A stretch of DNA of 64,000 nt from Dictyostelium discoideum (Eukaryota), in assembly GCA_000004695.1 (NCBI GenBank), contig CM000153.2:1344001-1408000 (forward strand). Reading direction: 5' to 3'. The notes beneath the pieces were generated by a model. That model had not been told where the DNA came from and made no database searches. It was given only the letters and a program-made list of their open reading frames with translations. This document shows, in pieces, positions 5,351 to 57,870 of this stretch. A program made the translations under genes and the position numbers. Every line of letters begins with the position of its first letter. The stretch's first letter is position 1.

Positions 5351-5389
5351 ATGGCAATTGATAAAACAGAAACCACAACAGCAACAACG

Positions 5390-5420
<31 letters not shown>

Positions 5421-6451
5421 CCAATGATTCATCATTTGGTATTGTATTTGATATTGATGGTGTATTAATGAGAGATGGAGTGATAATACCAAATGCAACA
5501 CAAGCTTTAAAACTTTTAGAAGATAAAGAAACAAGTGAACCAAAGATACCGTATATATTTATGACAAATAATGGTGGATTCACAGAAGAAGAGAAAGCAA
5601 ATAAAATCTCTAAAGTATTACAATACAATATTCCAAGTGATAAAGTTATGGTAGCACATACACCAGTGAGACCGTTAGCAGAGAAATATAAAGATTACGA
5701 TGTTTTATTAATTAGTAAAACACATGAAACCTCAAAGAAATTAGCAGACTGGTATGGTTTTAAAAATTATAAATCACTTCAACAATATATTGAAGAACGT
5801 CCATTCCTTTGTCCATCTAAATATTCAACATTTTGGACTCAAGGTGTGTCAAGTGAATATGTTATCAAAGAAGCAAAGAAACAATTACCAATTAAAGCAA
5901 TCATTTTATTAGAGGATCCAATCGATTGGGGTGAATGTATCCAAATTGTATCGGATATACTACAAAGTAAAGATGGTTTATTAAGAAAAGATTATATCAA
6001 TCGAGCAGATGTTCAATCGATTGATTTTCACATTTGTAATCCAGATTTCTCCTATGCTGGTGAATTTGTAATACCACGTTATACAATGGGTGCAATATTG
6101 GAATGTATTAAACTTTTATTTAAAACTCAAACTGGTAGAGATTTAATTTATACACTCTATGGTAAACCTTATCCATTAACCTATCAATATGGTAAACAAA
6201 TAATTTCAAATCAAATTTCAAAACTTGGTTTCAATGATGGTTGTATTTTAAAACATATCTATGCAATTGGTGATAATCCATACTCTGATATCAAAGGTGC
6301 AAACAATTTAGAACATGAAGGTTGGATAAGTATTTTAGTTAAAACTGGCTGTTTCAAAGGTGATACTAACCATCCTGAAATTCCTGCAAAATATGTAGTT
6401 GATAATGTTTATGATGCTGTTAAATTAATTTTAAAATTAGAAGGTCAATAA
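5351..6451 (+). CDS. HAD-superfamily subfamily IIA hydrolase (CECR5/HDHD5-like).
   Basis: HAD motif I is present as GIVFDIDGVLMRDG. The C-terminal motif IV is AIGDNPYSDIKGANN. The protein starts with a poly-Thr tract encoded by (ACA)n. Confidence 0.8.
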
Positions 6452-6511: not shown

Positions 6512-7530
6512 TTATGTATTTTTTGTAATTTTATCTTTTAAATAAACATAAAAACAAGTATCAGAAGATTTATATTCAATGTCAGGATTAAATGGTAAAG
6601 TACCTTTTGGACGTTTCCAAACTACTCTATTTGAAGCGAAACGTCTTGATAAAGCGAATAATGTTGTTGAATCTCTATCACCACCAACTAATTTTCTAAT
6701 TGCTCTAATATCTTTTTTTGATAATGATTTTTCATTTTTCTTTGGTTGATACATTGGGTCCATAAAGATTACTTGTGGTGGTGGTGGTGCATTATCATCT
6801 TTCAAGTTTTTAAGACTTTCAACTAAATACTCGATTGAATCTTTATGAATTAATGTTATACGTTTTGCAATCTGTGCAGTATCAGGATTTAATAATGCTT
6901 TTGATAATGCACTCTCAATTAAATAAACCAATACTGGATTTCTTTCAATGATTGTTACATTTGAACCGAATGATGCCAAAATCCAAGCATCCTTACCCAA
7001 GCCACCAGTTACATCCAAAATAGTTTTTGGATGAACATTTTTTGATAAACTAGTTGATCTAATTATTGGTGATCTCTTATTCTTTCCAAATTCAGTACGA
7101 TGTGCAATTGAACCTTCAGTATAATCTAAAAGTACTTCGTTCATCATCTTTCTAACATTACGATTACCTACTCCTCTTGATGATGATGATGATGATGTTG
7201 GTGGTGAACAAGCTTCAAAATCATGTAATGTTACACCTTTTGGTTGGACGAATAAAACTGATTGATATGTAAATAATTCATTTGGTAATTTTAAAACTTG
7301 TTGAAGTGGTAAATATTCTAATTTTAAAAAGTTTGCCAATGTTTTTGCTTCAGATTCTTTATTCTCTGATGCTGTAACAATTGTTAATCTTTTATCACTT
7401 TTACTTAAATCTCTATTAATGAAAATACCATGTGCAATCTCTTCTTGACCTGCATATCCTAAAATATCTTTTGTATCTTGAATATCCATTTTTGGTTTTG
7501 TGTTTGTTTCATTTTTTATTTTATTTTGTA

Positions 7531-7599
<69 letters not shown>

Positions 7600-7909
7600 G
7601 CTGTTGTTGTTGTTGTGGTGTAAATGATAAATTTTTATTTCTATTTTCGTCAATTATATTTTTTAATTCCTTATCTTCACCACTTAAAAACTTTTTAATA
7701 TTTGAATTTTTATTCTTTTTTTTTCTGGCTAATAAAATTTTTTTATTTATTTCTGAATCATTATCTGTATTATTATTATTATTATTTTGATTATTTTGAT
7801 TGTTGGTACAAAATAATCTTATTGTTGTTGGCTTAATATTAATTCTATTTATTGATGTTATTATGCTTTGTTGTTTATTTATAATTTGTGGTAATAAATT
7901 TCGTATCAT
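6512..7909 (-). CDS. RsmJ/YhiQ-family SAM-dependent rRNA (guanine-N2) methyltransferase with an N-terminal mitochondrial-like presequence and a poly-Q insertion.
   Basis: ILDVTGGLGKDAWILASFGSNVTIIERNPVLVYLIE...PQVIFMDPMYQPKK...NRVVWKRPK aligns with E. coli RsmJ ([35 protein letters not shown]...PQVVYLDPMFPHKQK...KRVVVKRPD). The N-terminus MIRNLLPQIINKQQSIITSINRINIKPTTIRLF is basic and hydroxylated with no acidic residues. (TTG)n at 7541-7616 is (CAA)n on the coding strand and encodes about 40 Q. Confidence 0.8.
7541..7616 (-). repeat. (CAA)n (shown as (TTG)n on the + strand) encoding about 40 Gln inside the RsmJ-like methyltransferase.
   Basis: Directly visible. Confidence 0.9.
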
Positions 7910-8907
7910 TGTTAAGAAAATAAAAAATTAATTTTACAATCTTTTAATTAAAATAAAAAAAAAAAAAAAAAAAAAAAACGAAATCAATATAAACACGAAA
8001 AATAAATAAAAAAAAAAATAAAAAAATGAAAATTTTTTTTATTATTTTTCATTTTTTTTTTTTTTTTTTTAACAATGATTTAATTTTATTTATTTTTAGT
8101 TTGAATTTAGTAATATAAAAAGAACACTCAAAAATACACAAAATCATATAAAATTAATAATAATTATTAAAAATTTTTTTTTTTTTTTTTTTTTTTATTT
8201 TTGTGAAAAATTATTTTTTATTTGTTGGATTGAATTGTCTAATTAAATTACCTTTTGATTTTATTACTAAATGCGATTATGATTGAATGGATATCTATTC
8301 AGCATTTCTTTCAATTGGTGTATTTTCATCAACACCTTCAAATACTTTTTCTTTAGTAATTGGTTTATAAGATTTGAAAGTGTCATTCCATTTTTTATAT
8401 TTTCCATTTGTTTCATCATAAAGAATTCAATTGTTTAAAATAATTTTGAATTGTTGTCATTTCATTAATCTGCAAACATACTATAGGTATAGTATTGGAA
8501 TTGTTGAAATTTTAAATTATTTAAAAATAAAAATTTATTTTATTTTAAATAAAATTTCGGTTTTAAAACAATCCAATTGCGCATAATAATTAATTTTTTT
8601 TTTTTTCCTAATTTCGTTGGTATTCAATTTTTTTCTCGTGTTTCGAAAATGATTTATCATGATTTTCATTTTTTTTTTTTTTTTTTTATTTTAACCTTTT
8701 TTTTTTTTTTTTTTTTTTAAATTTAATTTTTAATTTTTTTTTTTTTTTTTTTAAATACCACCTAATTTAAAAATTTTATTTTAATATCTAAATAAATTTT
8801 TATTATTACTTTTTTATTTATTTTATTTATTTATTTATATAAAATAATAATAATACCAATAATATATATATATTATATATGTATATTAGTAGAATTAATT
8901 TTTGAAA

Positions 8908-10474
8908 ATGAATCAATTATTGTCAAAATCTTTTAAACCATTAGTTGTGGCAGGTGTGGCAGTTATTGGAATTTCAGCATTTTCAGGTAATAGAGCATAT
9001 GATGAATATAGAAAAGAAAGAGAAAGTATATCAAAAAAGATGATCAATGATTTAAATGAAAATAAAATTACAATGTTTGATTATTTTCAAGAATGTAAAA
9101 CACTTGGACGTGATGAACAATTAAGTAAATTAAATAAATTATCAAAAGTTTATAATAAGCAGAAATTGAATGAACAAGAGAATCAAGAAGAATTGATAGA
9201 TTTAGATTTGATTGTAATTGGTGGTGGTGCAACTGGTACAGGTGTTGCATTGGATGCACAATCACGTGGTATGAAAGTTGCACTCTTTGAAAAGTATGAT
9301 TTTTCAAGTGGTACAAGTTCGAAATCTACAAAATTGGTTCATGGAGGTATTAGATATTTAGAGAGTGCAATTATGAAATTAAAACCATCAGAATTGACAT
9401 TAGTGAAAGAAGCATTACGTGAGCGATCCAATCTATTGAATAACGCACCACATTTATCACGTCAATTGCCAATTGTAATTCCAGCCTACTCAATATTTGA
9501 TGCATCAAAGTTTTGGATAGGTTGTAAACTATATGATTTCTTTTATCCATTTAATGATATCCCAAAATCATATCTTCAAACAAGTGCACAAACCTATAAG
9601 GAATTCCCATTCCTACGTGAAGGTTTAGTGTCATCTGTTGTCTATTACGATGGTCAACATAATGATTCACGTATGAATGTTTCACTTGCATTAACTGCAG
9701 CACAACAAGGTGCATTAACTTTAAATTATACAGAAGTTGTAGAATTAATTAAGGATGATAAAATCAATAATAACAATAAGCAACAACAACTTAAAGGTGT
9801 TGTTATTAGAGATAGATTAACAGGTAAAAAATATTCAGTACCTGCAAAATGTGTTGTAAATGCAACTGGTCCATATTGTGATTCAATTAGAAATTTGGAT
9901 GATCCACGTGCTGATCCAATTATAACAGCAAGTTCAGGTGTTCATATTATGTTACCTGGTAATTTAATACCATCAGATAAAGGTTTCTTAAATCCAAAGA
10001 CAAAGGATGGTCGTGTATTATTCATTCTCCCATTCGAAGGTAAAACTTTAGTTGGTACCACCGATGATCCATCACCAATCATTGAAAATCCTCAACCATT
10101 AGAAAAAGATGTCGAATTCATTCTTGATTCAATTAAAGAGTATAGTAATCCAAATGTGAAATTGGATAAATCTCAAGTTTTAGCTTGTTGGTCTGGTATT
10201 AGACCATTGGTTAGTGATGAACCAGCAGCTCAAGGTGATAATAAAAAATCAACATCTCAAGTAACTCGTAGTCATTCACTTCGTATGTCTGAATCTGGTT
10301 TAATCACAATCGTTGGTGGTAAATGGACAACTTATCGTTCAATGGCTGAAGCAACTGTAAATCTCGTCTGTTCAAAACATGACATTTTCACACCAAAAGG
10401 TTGTATAACTAAAAATCTTCCATTAATTGGTGGTGAAAAATATTATAATACTTTAAATCAATATTTAATTAAAA
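8908..10474 (+). CDS. Mitochondrial FAD-dependent glycerol-3-phosphate dehydrogenase (GPD2/GlpD-type), exon 1.
   Basis: The ORF track starts at TTG 8902; the first ATG is at 8908. The FAD-binding fingerprint is DLIVIGGGATGTGVALDAQSRGMKVALFEK. LVHGGIRYLE and GGKWTTYR are characteristic of GlpD/GPD2. The exon ends at ttaattaaaa|gtaaag (phase 1). Confidence 0.8.
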
Positions 10475-10591
10475 GTAAAGTATATTATAAATATTTAAAT
10501 ATTTCTATCTATCTATCTATCCATCTATCTACCTCAAATTTATAATATTAATATAAAATCATTTAATTAAAAAAAAAAAAAAAAAAAATAG

Positions 10592-11397: not shown

Positions 11398-18059
<6,662 letters not shown>

Positions 18060-18169
18060 CTAATAATGATAAAAAAATGGAAAAAAAAATATTAGCTTTA
18101 TAGGGAAACATTTTGGAAAAAAAAAAAAAAAAAAAAAAATTTGGGTTTTTCTCCCAATTATAATATTAC

Positions 18170-57151: not shown

Positions 57152-57870
57152 AGGATTGTAATTTAGAAACTAATTTTAAAGATCATGGATTAACATCACA
57201 ATTTTTAGGTACAATTTTATGTGATAATAGTTGTCCACCATGGAGAGTTAATTCAATGTTTGATTCAATTATAACAGATCCACCATATGGTATTAGAGCA
57301 GGTGCAAGAAAAATTGGATTTAAAGAGAATCGTAAATTCGTTCCAGTTCCAGAAGGTTTAAGAAGAGACCATATTCCACAATGTATTGATTATAGTGTAC
57401 CAGATGTAATGGCAGATCTATTAGAATTGGCTGCTAAAACTTTAATTGTTGGTGGTCGTTTAGTTTATTGGTTACCAACAACACCAGATTATAAAGAAAC
57501 TGATTTACCAAGACATCCATGTCTTAGATTAATTACTGCAAGTTGTTTACAAATTCTTACCAATAGATGGGGCAGACGTTTAGTTACAATGGAGAAAATT
57601 ATAGAATATAATGATTCAATTCATAATAAATCTTTATTGGTTCAAGAGGATTTAGGACAATTTGACCCACAACATAAAGATTTACGTGCTGTTGTTTTCT
57701 GGAAAAAAATGGGTACAAATGAAAAAACTAAAAAAAAAGAACAAAAGAAAAAAAGTGTTGAAAATCATTTAAAATCAAAAAATAATAATGATGTAATTAA
57801 TAATAATAGTAATGATACAAATAGTAATAATAATTGCAATAATGAAAATAATATTGAAAACCAAAAATAA
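57152..57870 (+). CDS. TRMT11, exon 3 (DPPYG catalytic motif).
   Basis: Acceptor tgtatag|ag. The exon reads (E)DCNLETNFKDHGLTSQFLGTILCDNSCPPWRVNSMFDSIITDPPYGIRAG...LIVGGRLVYWLPT...RRLVTMEKI. Human TRMT11 has FDAIITDPPYGIRE...LVLGGRLVYWLP...RRLITMEKV. There is a poly-N tail. The total CDS is 1524 nt, in frame. Confidence 0.8.

What the first reader, a model, noticed from the sequence alone, without database searches (positions are those of the whole stretch)
6512..7909. Bacterial-type RsmJ rRNA methyltransferase with a mitochondrial-like presequence and a 40-residue polyQ insertion
RsmJ (YhiQ/DUF548, m2G1516 of 16S rRNA) is a mostly bacterial family. Here a clear homolog has an N-terminus that is basic and hydroxylated with no acidic residues, which suggests it modifies the mitochondrial small-subunit rRNA. 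The catalytic core is conserved, but a (CAA)n-encoded polyQ tract has been inserted between the N-terminal region and the SAM-binding fold. That is an unusual thing to tolerate inside an RNA-modifying enzyme.
Basis: partly seen in the sequence, partly recalled or inferred. Interest (0 to 1): 0.5.

Follow-up and report, generated by a model that had tools for sequence, protein, structure and literature searches.

The report
Amoeba RsmJ-type rRNA methyltransferase gene
This is a real nuclear gene of a Dictyostelium social amoeba for a bacterial-type RsmJ rRNA methyltransferase that probably works in mitochondria; its polyglutamine run lies in a variable N-terminal tail outside the enzyme fold, which is ordinary for this genome.

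Summary
The ORF at 6512-7909 (minus strand, 465 aa) is real. It is a single exon and is syntenic in two sister Dictyostelium species. It belongs to the RsmJ/YhiQ family: Pfam PF04445 scores 167 bits against a cutoff of 26, a profile-profile comparison gives E 8e-62 over the whole bacterial protein, and the YhiQ crystal structures are the top fold matches. The SAM-binding and catalytic motifs are intact.

Two details in the finding are wrong. The polyQ is 28 residues (99-126), not 40. It is also not inside the enzyme: bacterial RsmJ residue 3 aligns to residue 175, so the polyQ sits in a 174-residue N-terminal extension. It is not conserved even in D. citrinum or D. firmibasis, and it is one of many triplet arrays in this window.

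Mitochondrial targeting is plausible but not shown. The first 48 residues have no acidic residue, net charge +5 and an amphipathic helix, but 4 of 24 long ORFs in the window pass similar charge criteria. Related proteins with basic leaders occur in other Amoebozoa, a malawimonad and a marine protist.

Most likely the protein makes m2G in helix 45 of mitochondrial small-subunit rRNA. Interest is modest: it is an uncharacterised eukaryotic branch of a known enzyme family.

The parts
6512..7909 (-). Complete single-exon coding sequence, 465 codons plus a stop codon at 6512-6514. It encodes the RsmJ-family methyltransferase with an N-terminal extension.
   Evidence: ORF list. Orthologues in D. citrinum and D. 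firmibasis are called as single exons in the same gene neighbourhood. Conservation starts at this ATG: the first 35 codons are 88% nt identical to D. citrinum, against 56% for the 400 nt upstream.
7766..7909 (-). Putative mitochondrial targeting presequence, residues 1-48 (acid-free, net +5). A possible R-3 type processing site lies at R31-L-F33|C34, which would put the cleavable part at 7811-7909.
   Evidence: First acidic residue is D49. Hydrophobic moment is 0.54-0.60 at 100 degrees. AF2 predicts a helix at residues 2-21. 'TIRLFCT' is conserved in three Dictyostelium species. The cleavage site and import are inferred, not shown.
7463..7765 (-). Low-complexity, lineage-variable linker, residues 49-149. 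It is N-, K- and Q-rich and includes a basic 'ARKKKNKNSNIKKF' stretch.
   Evidence: Alignment A1 shows poor conservation and many gaps here across dictyostelids. AF2 pLDDT is mostly below 70 and below 50 for residues 61-70, 90-98 and 134-139.
7532..7615 (-). PolyQ tract, 28 Gln (residues 99-126), encoded by 27 CAA and 1 CAG.
   Evidence: In D. citrinum the aligned region reads QSQQPQPQQPQPQQ, and in D. firmibasis QQEQQEQQEEQ. AF2 draws it as an isolated helix (98-132) flanked by linkers with pLDDT below 50.
7388..7462 (-). Dictyostelid-specific conserved segment, residues 150-174 (consensus KEIAPGIxINPxLSKxDK), directly preceding the RsmJ fold.
   Evidence: Invariant E, A, G, I, N and L columns across 7 dictyostelid sequences. 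There is no counterpart in bacterial RsmJ: hhalign starts at profile position 26. AF2 predicts a short helix and two short strands with pLDDT 60-81.
7211..7387 (-). RsmJ N-terminal small domain, residues 175-233.
   Evidence: hhalign aligns dictyostelid profile positions 26-302 to bacterial profile positions 6-259 of 265, probability 100%, E 7.9e-62. pLDDT is 88-97. Foldseek aligns about 287 columns to the 245-254-residue YhiQ chains, target-normalised TM 0.79-0.81.
7154..7210 (-). Interdomain insertion relative to bacterial RsmJ, residues 234-252, containing SSSSSS (239-244).
   Evidence: Gap in E. coli RsmJ in alignment A1 and in hhalign. The poly-Ser is absent in D. firmibasis. pLDDT dips to about 56-72.
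6524..7153 (-). Class I SAM-dependent methyltransferase domain, residues 253-462. Motif I DVTGGLGKD is at 6989-7015, ERNP at 6935-6946 and the catalytic DPMY at 6749-6760.
   Evidence: Pfam match covers residues 256-457. The invariant columns D299, T301, G303, G305, D307, E322, R323, P325, D384, P385, M386, K398, K399, R402, G409, D411, K432 and P434 are shared with 28 bacterial RsmJ sequences. The motif coordinates were read directly from the sequence.

Best explanation
This is a nuclear, single-exon Dictyostelium gene, most likely from D. discoideum. It encodes a catalytically intact RsmJ/YhiQ-type SAM-dependent guanine-N2 methyltransferase.

Proposed mechanism:
1. The protein is made in the cytosol.
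2. A basic, amphipathic N-terminal presequence directs its import into mitochondria (inferred).
3. There it methylates N2 of the guanine in the helix-45 loop of the mitochondrial small-subunit rRNA. This is the equivalent of E. coli G1516, next to the two dimethyl-adenosines (inferred from homology).
4. As in bacteria, it probably acts late, on an assembled small subunit (inferred from homology).

The 28-residue polyQ is a species-specific CAA-repeat expansion in a disordered linker between the presequence and the enzyme. It has no specific role in catalysis.

The gene belongs to a eukaryote-type RsmJ group that carries N-terminal leaders. That group is present in several Amoebozoa, a malawimonad and other protists.
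For: Family and fold (shown):
- Pfam PF04445 scores 167 bits against a cutoff of 26.
- PDB sequence hits are only YhiQ/RsmJ.
- hhalign to a bacterial RsmJ profile gives probability 100% and E 7.9e-62, covering bacterial positions 6-259 of 265.
- The AF2 core has pLDDT about 85-97. The five YhiQ structures are its top Foldseek hits, at E 4.6e-16 to 3.8e-13 against 2e-6 for the next fold.
- All 33 columns invariant across dictyostelid and enterobacterial RsmJ are retained, including motif I, ERNP and DPMY.

Genuine eukaryotic gene (shown):
- The surrounding DNA is 17-26% GC.
- Synteny is conserved, with a DAO/DAO_C dehydrogenase gene and a HAD-hydrolase gene as neighbours in two other Dictyostelium genomes.
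- Coding-level conservation begins exactly at the ATG.

Targeting (suggestive):
- Residues 1-48 are acid-free, net +5, with muH 0.54-0.60.
- It is the only one of 24 long window ORFs that combines a late first acidic residue, net charge of at least +4 and muH of at least 0.5.
- Basic leaders also occur in the homologues from Rhizamoeba (+7), Gefionella (+5), P0284 (+8), P0204 and P0136.
- The acidic N-terminus of the Acanthamoeba model may be an annotation artefact. An in-frame upstream reading encodes a 59-residue acid-free, Arg-rich leader.

Eukaryote-type group:
- An 'SP' signature is found in 20 of 283 aligned family members. These include every sequence traced to a eukaryote except Synstelium, which has AP.
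- These sequences form one clade in the point NJ tree.

PolyQ is incidental.
Against: - No trained targeting predictor and no experimental localisation could be consulted. The supplementary tables of the D. discoideum mitochondrial compendium are not held.
- Simple charge criteria are met by 4 of 24 long ORFs in this window, so they are weakly specific.
- Several dictyostelid orthologues have an acidic residue by position 12-15.
- The extension contains a Lys-rich stretch (ARKKKNK) that could also act as a nuclear signal.
- The NCBIfam RsmJ equivalog model scores 119 bits against a cutoff of 422, so functional equivalence, meaning the same target nucleotide, is not established by that standard.
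- The target G in the Dictyostelium mitochondrial SSU rRNA could not be examined.
- The single eukaryotic clade has only about 3-4% bootstrap support in a crude NJ analysis.
- The closest bacterial genomes found are Gammaproteobacteria, not Alphaproteobacteria, which gives no support for descent from the mitochondrial ancestor.
Confidence: 0.6

Rival explanations
1. The enzyme is mitochondrial but has drifted to another substrate, either a different guanine in mitochondrial rRNA or a mitochondrial tRNA.
For: The NCBIfam equivalog threshold is not met (119 against 422 bits). Identity to bacterial RsmJ is only about 27-30%. There is a dictyostelid-specific conserved segment (residues 150-174) and there are insertions within the fold that could alter RNA recognition.
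Against: The whole two-domain RsmJ architecture and all family-invariant residues are conserved. That the helix-45 loop is among the most conserved parts of SSU rRNA is established knowledge and was not tested here.
Confidence: 0.15
2. The protein is not mitochondrial. It acts in the cytosol or nucleolus, for example on cytosolic 18S rRNA or another RNA, and the N-terminal extension is ordinary Dictyostelium low-complexity sequence with a Lys-rich nuclear signal.
For: Acid-free, basic N-termini are fairly common among ORFs of this window: 5 of 24 have no acidic residue before position 40. The 'ARKKKNKNSNIKKF' stretch resembles a nuclear localisation signal (sequence). The annotated Acanthamoeba model lacks a presequence.
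Against: Basic N-terminal leaders recur in distant lineages with quite different sequence composition, namely Rhizamoeba, Gefionella and P0284. The first 35 codons are as conserved as the catalytic core. Bacterial-type rRNA modification enzymes encoded in eukaryotic nuclei typically serve organelles (general knowledge). m2G at the equivalent 18S position has not been described in yeast or human, to my knowledge.
Confidence: 0.12
3. The polyQ is a functionally selected insertion that modulates the enzyme, for example through protein-protein interaction or phase behaviour.
For: The tract is long (28 Q), nearly pure, and retained in frame.
Against: It is absent from the two closest species, where the aligned region is short and impure. 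It lies outside the fold, between low-confidence linkers. The window holds 316 tandem-repeat rows, including many coding triplet arrays such as a run of 50 Asn.
Confidence: 0.05
4. The gene is bacterial contamination or a very recent bacterial transfer without an organellar role.
For: The family is overwhelmingly bacterial. Independent transfer of rsmJ into insects (psyllids) is documented (PMC10558732).
Against: The composition is AT-rich and the low-complexity tracts are typical of Dictyostelium. Synteny is conserved across three species. Orthologues are present throughout Dictyostelia and in other Amoebozoa. The best bacterial identity is only 34-40%.
Confidence: 0.02

Closest known systems
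E. coli RsmJ (YhiQ), 16S rRNA (guanine1516-N2)-methyltransferase; structures 2pgx, 2oyr, 2pkw, and Neisseria NGO1261 (2r6z)
   Same: It has the same two-domain fold, a small N-terminal domain followed by a class I SAM methyltransferase domain. The same motifs are present: D-x-T-x-G-x-G-x-D, ERNP, DPM[YF], KK..R and KRP. Sequence, profile and fold matches are all highly significant.
   Different: There is a 174-residue N-terminal extension made of a presequence-like leader, a low-complexity linker with the polyQ, and a dictyostelid-specific conserved segment. There is an insertion of about 19 residues with poly-Ser between the two domains, and a further insertion (KNLKDDNAPPPP) before motif IV. 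Identity is only 24-30%. The score is far below the NCBIfam equivalog cutoff. The presumed target is mitochondrial, not bacterial, rRNA (inferred).
Eukaryote-type RsmJ homologues: dictyostelids, Acanthamoeba castellanii XP_004342242.1, Rhizamoeba saxonica, Gefionella okellyi, an MMETSP transcript and unnamed Logan/JGI sequences
   Same: They share an N-terminal leader ahead of the RsmJ fold, usually basic. They share the 'SP' signature in K/R-S-P-x-x-R, where bacterial sequences mostly have Q/E-x. They cluster together in the point NJ tree.
   Different: The dictyostelid proteins score 392-528 bits against their own profile, while the next group scores 178 bits or less. Dictyostelids have much longer extensions (103-198 residues) and the extra conserved KEIAPGI segment. 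The polyQ is found only in the window species.
Psyllid RSMJ, a horizontally transferred bacterial rsmJ expressed in bacteriomes (PMC10558732)
   Same: It is a bacterial-type rsmJ encoded in a eukaryotic nuclear genome and thought to serve a bacterium-derived translation system.
   Different: The psyllid genes cluster within Gammaproteobacteria as a recent transfer, and they are thought to serve an endosymbiont. The amoebozoan genes are old: they are shared across Dictyostelia and other Amoebozoa, they are divergent, and they carry organelle-type leaders.
Other m2G RNA methyltransferases (RsmC, RsmD, RlmG, RlmKL, Trm11)
   Same: They share the class I Rossmann-like SAM fold and a (D/N)-P-P/M-(Y/F) catalytic motif. 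They appear as weak fold matches, for example Trm11 and RlmKL.
   Different: Foldseek E-values are about 1e-6 to 1e-5, against 4.6e-16 to 3.8e-13 for the YhiQ structures. None was reported in the Pfam (max E 1) or PDB (max E 0.1) sequence searches. They lack the RsmJ N-terminal domain.

Membership tests
Pfam PF04445 (SAM_MT; RsmJ/YhiQ family) | Whole-protein score above the curated gathering threshold | tested here: met
   167.2 bits against a cutoff of 26, E 5.1e-49, residues 256-457 on profile positions 35-229 of 230.
RsmJ/YhiQ family | Two-domain architecture: a small N-terminal domain plus a class I methyltransferase domain, matching the solved YhiQ structures | tested here: met
   hhalign covers bacterial profile positions 6-259 of 265, E 7.9e-62. 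The Foldseek top 5 are all YhiQ/NGO1261 chains, with target-normalised TM 0.66-0.81.
RsmJ/YhiQ family | SAM-binding motif I (D-x-T-x-G-x-G-x-D), the acidic motif II (ERNP) and the catalytic DPM[YF] motif | tested here: met
   DVTGGLGKD (299-307), ERNP (322-325) and DPMY (384-387). These columns are invariant across 35 sequences and were read directly from the DNA.
NCBIfam NF008012 (RsmJ equivalog, i.e. same function as E. coli RsmJ) | Score above the curated equivalog cutoff | tested here: not met
   119.1 bits against a cutoff of 422. The model is tuned to bacterial orthologues. Family membership stands, but strict functional equivalence cannot be claimed on this basis.
RsmJ (functional definition) | SAM-dependent N2-methylation of G1516, or its equivalent, in the helix-45 loop of small-subunit rRNA, on assembled subunits | not testable with these tools
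   This needs biochemistry, or rRNA modification mapping in wild type against a knockout.
Mitochondrial matrix protein with a cleavable presequence | N-terminal positively charged amphipathic helix lacking acidic residues, recognised by a trained predictor or shown experimentally | tested here: inconclusive
   Residues 1-48 are acid-free, net +5, muH 0.54-0.60, with a predicted helix at 2-21. However, 4 of 24 window ORFs pass the charge criteria. No TargetP or MitoFates was available, and the proteomics tables are not held.
Mitochondrial RsmJ hypothesis | A G at the position equivalent to 1516 in the Dictyostelium mitochondrial SSU rRNA helix-45 loop | not testable with these tools
   The mitochondrial genome is not in the window or in any collection I could reach.
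Dictyostelium coding triplet-repeat tracts (homopolymer runs) | A near-pure in-frame triplet array that varies between close species, in a genome rich in such arrays | tested here: met
   (CAA)27 plus one CAG. It is not conserved in D. citrinum or D. firmibasis. The window has 316 tandem-repeat rows, including (ATT)50 encoding 50 Asn.

The most novel reading that the evidence does not exclude
RsmJ was part of the ancestral mitochondrial ribosome-maturation toolkit of eukaryotes, or was acquired very early. On this reading it survives as a presequence-bearing clade in Amoebozoa, malawimonads and some other protists. Their mitochondrial small-subunit rRNA would then carry an m2G in helix 45 that animals, fungi and plants have lost. 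This would be an undescribed mitochondrial rRNA modification and enzyme, and it would contradict the published view that RsmJ is restricted to Enterobacteria.
Probability: 0.4. Interest if true: 0.45.

Novelty: new member of a known kind. Interest (0 to 1): 0.3.

Why it matters
If the protein is mitochondrial and active, it would add a modification to the known repertoire of mitochondrial rRNA marks: m2G next to the universally conserved dimethyl-adenosines of helix 45. It would add this for lineages whose mitoribosome has not yet been resolved; the compendium paper says so for D. discoideum.

It also corrects a published statement that RsmJ is specific to Enterobacteria (PMC7056703). The exhaustive search found 5202 cluster representatives at 50% identity, including several eukaryotic lineages.

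D. discoideum is genetically tractable, so the prediction is directly testable. The polyQ aspect does not matter much, because it is a routine Dictyostelium repeat expansion outside the enzyme.

Tried and rejected
1. The 'rsmJ' named in a Dictyostelium G-quadruplex paper is a Ras-type small GTPase gene (DDB_G0279305). This is only a name collision.

It said nothing about the nearest relatives.

3. A regex-based count of the 'SP' signature misplaced the motif. I replaced it with a MAFFT-based count.

4. An exact look-up of the window protein in the public gene index found nothing, and no identical protein was returned. I therefore infer the source species, probably D. discoideum, from the 77-80% identity to D. 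citrinum and D. firmibasis and from the synteny.

5. Supplementary tables of the D. discoideum mitochondrial compendium are not held. The original RsmJ paper, PMC4140241, is not held either.

6. Literature searches found no description of a eukaryotic or mitochondrial RsmJ other than the psyllid transfer. The terms tried were RsmJ with mitochondria, YhiQ with eukaryot, m2G1516, PF04445, and Acanthamoeba with mitochondrial proteome.

7. An alphaproteobacterial origin got no support. The 80 best bacterial loci are mostly Gammaproteobacteria.

8. Translation starting at the internal Met141, which would remove the extension, was rejected. M141 is not conserved, and conservation begins at the first ATG.
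Full report
**1. What is in the sequence.**
The window is extremely AT-rich, 15-34% GC in 2-kb blocks. It is full of homopolymer-coding triplet repeats, which is typical of a dictyostelid nuclear genome.

On the minus strand, 6512..7909 is one uninterrupted ORF of 465 codons. The closest proteins in public data are from Dictyostelium citrinum and D. firmibasis, at 77-80% identity. No identical protein or gene is on record. I infer that the window is from a close relative of those two species, most probably D. discoideum.

In both sister genomes the orthologue is called as a single exon. It lies between the same two genes as in the window: an FAD-dependent DAO/DAO_C dehydrogenase and a HAD-type hydrolase. 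This is a genuine, vertically inherited nuclear gene.

**2. Family assignment.**
- Pfam PF04445 (SAM_MT, the RsmJ/YhiQ family) scores 167 bits against a gathering cutoff of 26.
- The only meaningful matches among solved structures are YhiQ from E. coli, Shigella and Salmonella, and NGO1261 from Neisseria.
- A profile of seven dictyostelid sequences aligns to a profile of 25 bacterial RsmJ proteins with probability 100% and E 7.9e-62. The alignment covers bacterial profile positions 6-259 of 265.
- An AlphaFold2 model has pLDDT mostly 85-97 from about residue 170 to 460.
- The model's five best PDB matches are the YhiQ/NGO1261 chains. E-values are 4.6e-16 to 3.8e-13 and target-normalised TM is 0.66-0.81. 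The next fold, Trm11, is at 2e-6.
- All 33 columns invariant across dictyostelid plus enterobacterial sequences are present. They include motif I DVTGGLGKD (299-307), ERNP (322-325), DPMY (384-387), KK..R (398-402) and K-R-P (432-434).

The enzyme looks catalytically competent. The strict NCBIfam equivalog model for RsmJ is not passed (119 against 422 bits). Family membership is therefore firm, while identity of the target nucleotide is inferred.

**3. Where the polyQ sits.**
The polyQ is 28 consecutive Gln at residues 99-126, not 40. It is encoded by 27 CAA and one CAG and appears as a (TTG)28.3 array at 7532-7616 on the plus strand.

Bacterial RsmJ residue 3 aligns to window residue 175. This is consistent with the MAFFT alignment. 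The whole RsmJ fold, including its small N-terminal domain, therefore lies downstream of residue 174, and the polyQ ends 48 residues before it.

The tract lies in a 174-residue extension. AlphaFold gives most of that extension low confidence. The polyQ is drawn as an isolated helix between linkers with pLDDT below 50.

In D. citrinum the aligned region reads QSQQPQPQQPQPQQ, and in D. firmibasis QQEQQEQQEEQ. The pure polyQ is therefore a recent expansion in this species.

The window contains 316 tandem-repeat rows, among them many coding triplet arrays. One is (ATT)50, which encodes 50 consecutive Asn in a neighbouring large ORF. The polyQ is ordinary for this genome and is not tolerated inside the enzyme.

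The real insertions within the fold are two. One is a poly-Ser-containing stretch of about 19 residues between the two domains (234-252). The other is a short KNLKDDNAPPPP stretch before motif IV.

**4. Is the extension translated?**
Yes.
- Between the window and D. citrinum, the first 35 codons are 88% identical at nucleotide level. The catalytic core is 87% identical, and the 400 nt upstream of the ATG only 56%.
- The internal Met141 is not conserved.
- Immediately upstream of the fold there is a segment conserved in all dictyostelids, with consensus KEIAPGIxINPxLSKxDK at residues 150-174. It has no bacterial counterpart.

**5. Mitochondrial targeting.**
Residues 1-48 contain no acidic residue, 5 K/R and 7 S/T. 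They have a helical hydrophobic moment of 0.54-0.60, and AlphaFold predicts a helix at 2-21. 'TIRLFCT' is conserved in three species. It fits an R-3 type processing site, R31-L-F33|C34. That reading rests on my knowledge of such motifs and was not tested.

As a control I scored all 24 ATG-initiated ORFs of at least 150 aa in the window:
- 5 have no acidic residue before position 40.
- 4 meet 'first acidic at 25 or later and net charge of at least +4'.
- Only this ORF also has muH of at least 0.5.

The features are therefore consistent with a presequence, but charge alone is weakly specific here.

Independent support comes from homologues in distant lineages, whose leaders are basic although their composition is quite different. 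Examples are Rhizamoeba saxonica (MLQRCRFRVRRMKTMKRRY, net +7), Gefionella okellyi (MFRRLYTAIQLPLSIWRYRASRG, +5), the unnamed P0284 (+8), P0204 and an MMETSP transcript.

The annotated Acanthamoeba protein starts with an acidic stretch. However, the DNA upstream is open in a frame that reads directly into that acidic stretch. That reading encodes a 59-residue acid-free, Arg-rich leader, while the other two frames have 7 and 2 stops in the same span. The architecture would then match P0284: basic leader, acidic linker, RsmJ fold. The counter-example may therefore be a gene-model artefact.

Experimental localisation could not be checked.

**6. Distribution and origin.**
An exhaustive HMMER search with the dictyostelid profile found 5202 representatives (clusters at 50% identity) with E of 1e-3 or better. 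Seven dictyostelid representatives score 392-528 bits. Then there is a gap down to 178 bits.

The best non-dictyostelid cluster contains Acanthamoeba castellanii XP_004342242.1. Other hits with N-terminal extensions are from Rhizamoeba (Amoebozoa), Gefionella (a malawimonad), an MMETSP marine protist, and unnamed Logan and JGI assemblies.

In a 283-sequence alignment, 20 sequences carry 'SP' in the motif K/R-S-P-x-x-R. They include every sequence identified as eukaryotic except Synstelium, which has AP. With that same exception, they include every sequence with an extension of more than 40 residues. Bacterial-length sequences mostly have Q/E-x.

In a neighbour-joining tree, all 18 eukaryote-type sequences plus one metagenomic protein form a single clade of 19 among 282. 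Bootstrap support for that clade is only about 3-4%, against 100% for dictyostelids. A single eukaryotic clade is suggested, not demonstrated.

The closest bacterial genomes are mostly Gammaproteobacteria such as Methylophaga, Piscirickettsiaceae and Vibrio, at 34-40% identity. A few are Desulfobulbales and one is Bdellovibrionales. The origin, whether the mitochondrial ancestor or an early lateral transfer, is unresolved.

**7. Comparison with the literature.**
I found no paper describing a eukaryotic organellar RsmJ. The relevant papers say the following:
- Psyllids carry a recently transferred gammaproteobacterial rsmJ that is expressed in bacteriomes.
- A survey of Arabidopsis chloroplast rRNA found neither m2G1516 nor a plastid RsmJ.
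- A systematic study of E. coli rRNA methyltransferases described RsmJ as extremely specific to Enterobacteria. The present searches contradict that.
- The D. discoideum mitochondrial compendium notes that the mitoribosome of this organism has not been resolved.

**8. Verdict.**
The gene is an uncharacterised eukaryotic member of a known enzyme family. Its most likely role is m2G formation in helix 45 of mitochondrial SSU rRNA (confidence about 0.6). The polyQ is an incidental repeat expansion outside the fold. Interest is modest (0.3).

Noticed in passing
window 7909-8908, with flanking genes at 6512-7909 (-) and 8902-10545 (+): The RsmJ-type gene and an FAD-dependent DAO-family dehydrogenase gene are arranged head to head across about 1 kb of AT-rich DNA. 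The dehydrogenase is probably mitochondrial glycerol-3-phosphate dehydrogenase: its N-terminus has no acidic residue until position 32, and the orthologues also match DAO_C. The arrangement is conserved in D. citrinum and D. firmibasis. The dehydrogenase ORF here is 547 aa while the orthologues are 633-638 aa, so it probably continues past an intron near 10545.
   Followed up: partly
window 5351-6451 (+): The downstream neighbour is a HAD-superfamily hydrolase (Pfam Hydrolase_6 plus Hydrolase_like). It has a Thr-rich run right after the start codon (TETTTATTTTTTTTTTTTT), encoded by the (AAC)17 array at 5371-5421. It is another example of a homopolymer tract at the N-terminus of an enzyme in this window.
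   Followed up: partly
window 16327-16476, within ORF 11398-18111 (-): A perfect (ATT)50 array encodes 50 consecutive Asn inside a 2237-aa ORF. This tract is longer and purer than the polyQ in the finding. The same ORF holds further arrays, (ATT)35 at 16918-17022 and (TTG)24.7 at 17029-17102.
   Followed up: partly
L083 about 2223-2640 (Acanthamoeba castellanii KB007926.1, upstream of XP_004342242.1): The annotated Acanthamoeba RsmJ-type gene model starts with an 11-residue exon and an acidic N-terminus. An alternative unspliced reading is open for 138 codons upstream and encodes an Arg/Ser/Ala-rich, acid-poor leader. The public model may be mis-annotated at its 5' end.
   Followed up: partly
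literature (PMC7056703): A published survey states that RsmJ shows 'extreme specificity to Enterobacteria'. The exhaustive profile search found 5202 representatives (clusters at 50% identity). They include many non-enterobacterial Gammaproteobacteria, Desulfobulbales and several eukaryotes.
   Followed up: yes
P0123 (Synstelium polycarpum, EukProt), 742 aa: This dictyostelid homologue has the RsmJ region at residues 39-337, followed by an unrelated Ser/Glu-rich C-terminal region of about 400 residues. It has no N-terminal leader. It is probably a fused or truncated gene model.
   Followed up: no
window 57256-57870 (+): A 204-aa ORF begins MFDSIITDPPYGIRAG. It carries a DPPY motif typical of N-methyltransferases acting on amino groups (N6-adenine or N2-guanine type), so it may be part of another RNA or protein methyltransferase gene. 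I did not examine it further.
   Followed up: no
window 12001-14000: This 2-kb block has the highest GC content (0.34) and the strongest GC skew (+0.52) of the window. It coincides with 30-39-bp repeat units in the large minus-strand ORF, at 12976-13083 and 13289-13387. It probably encodes a repetitive protein domain.
   Followed up: no
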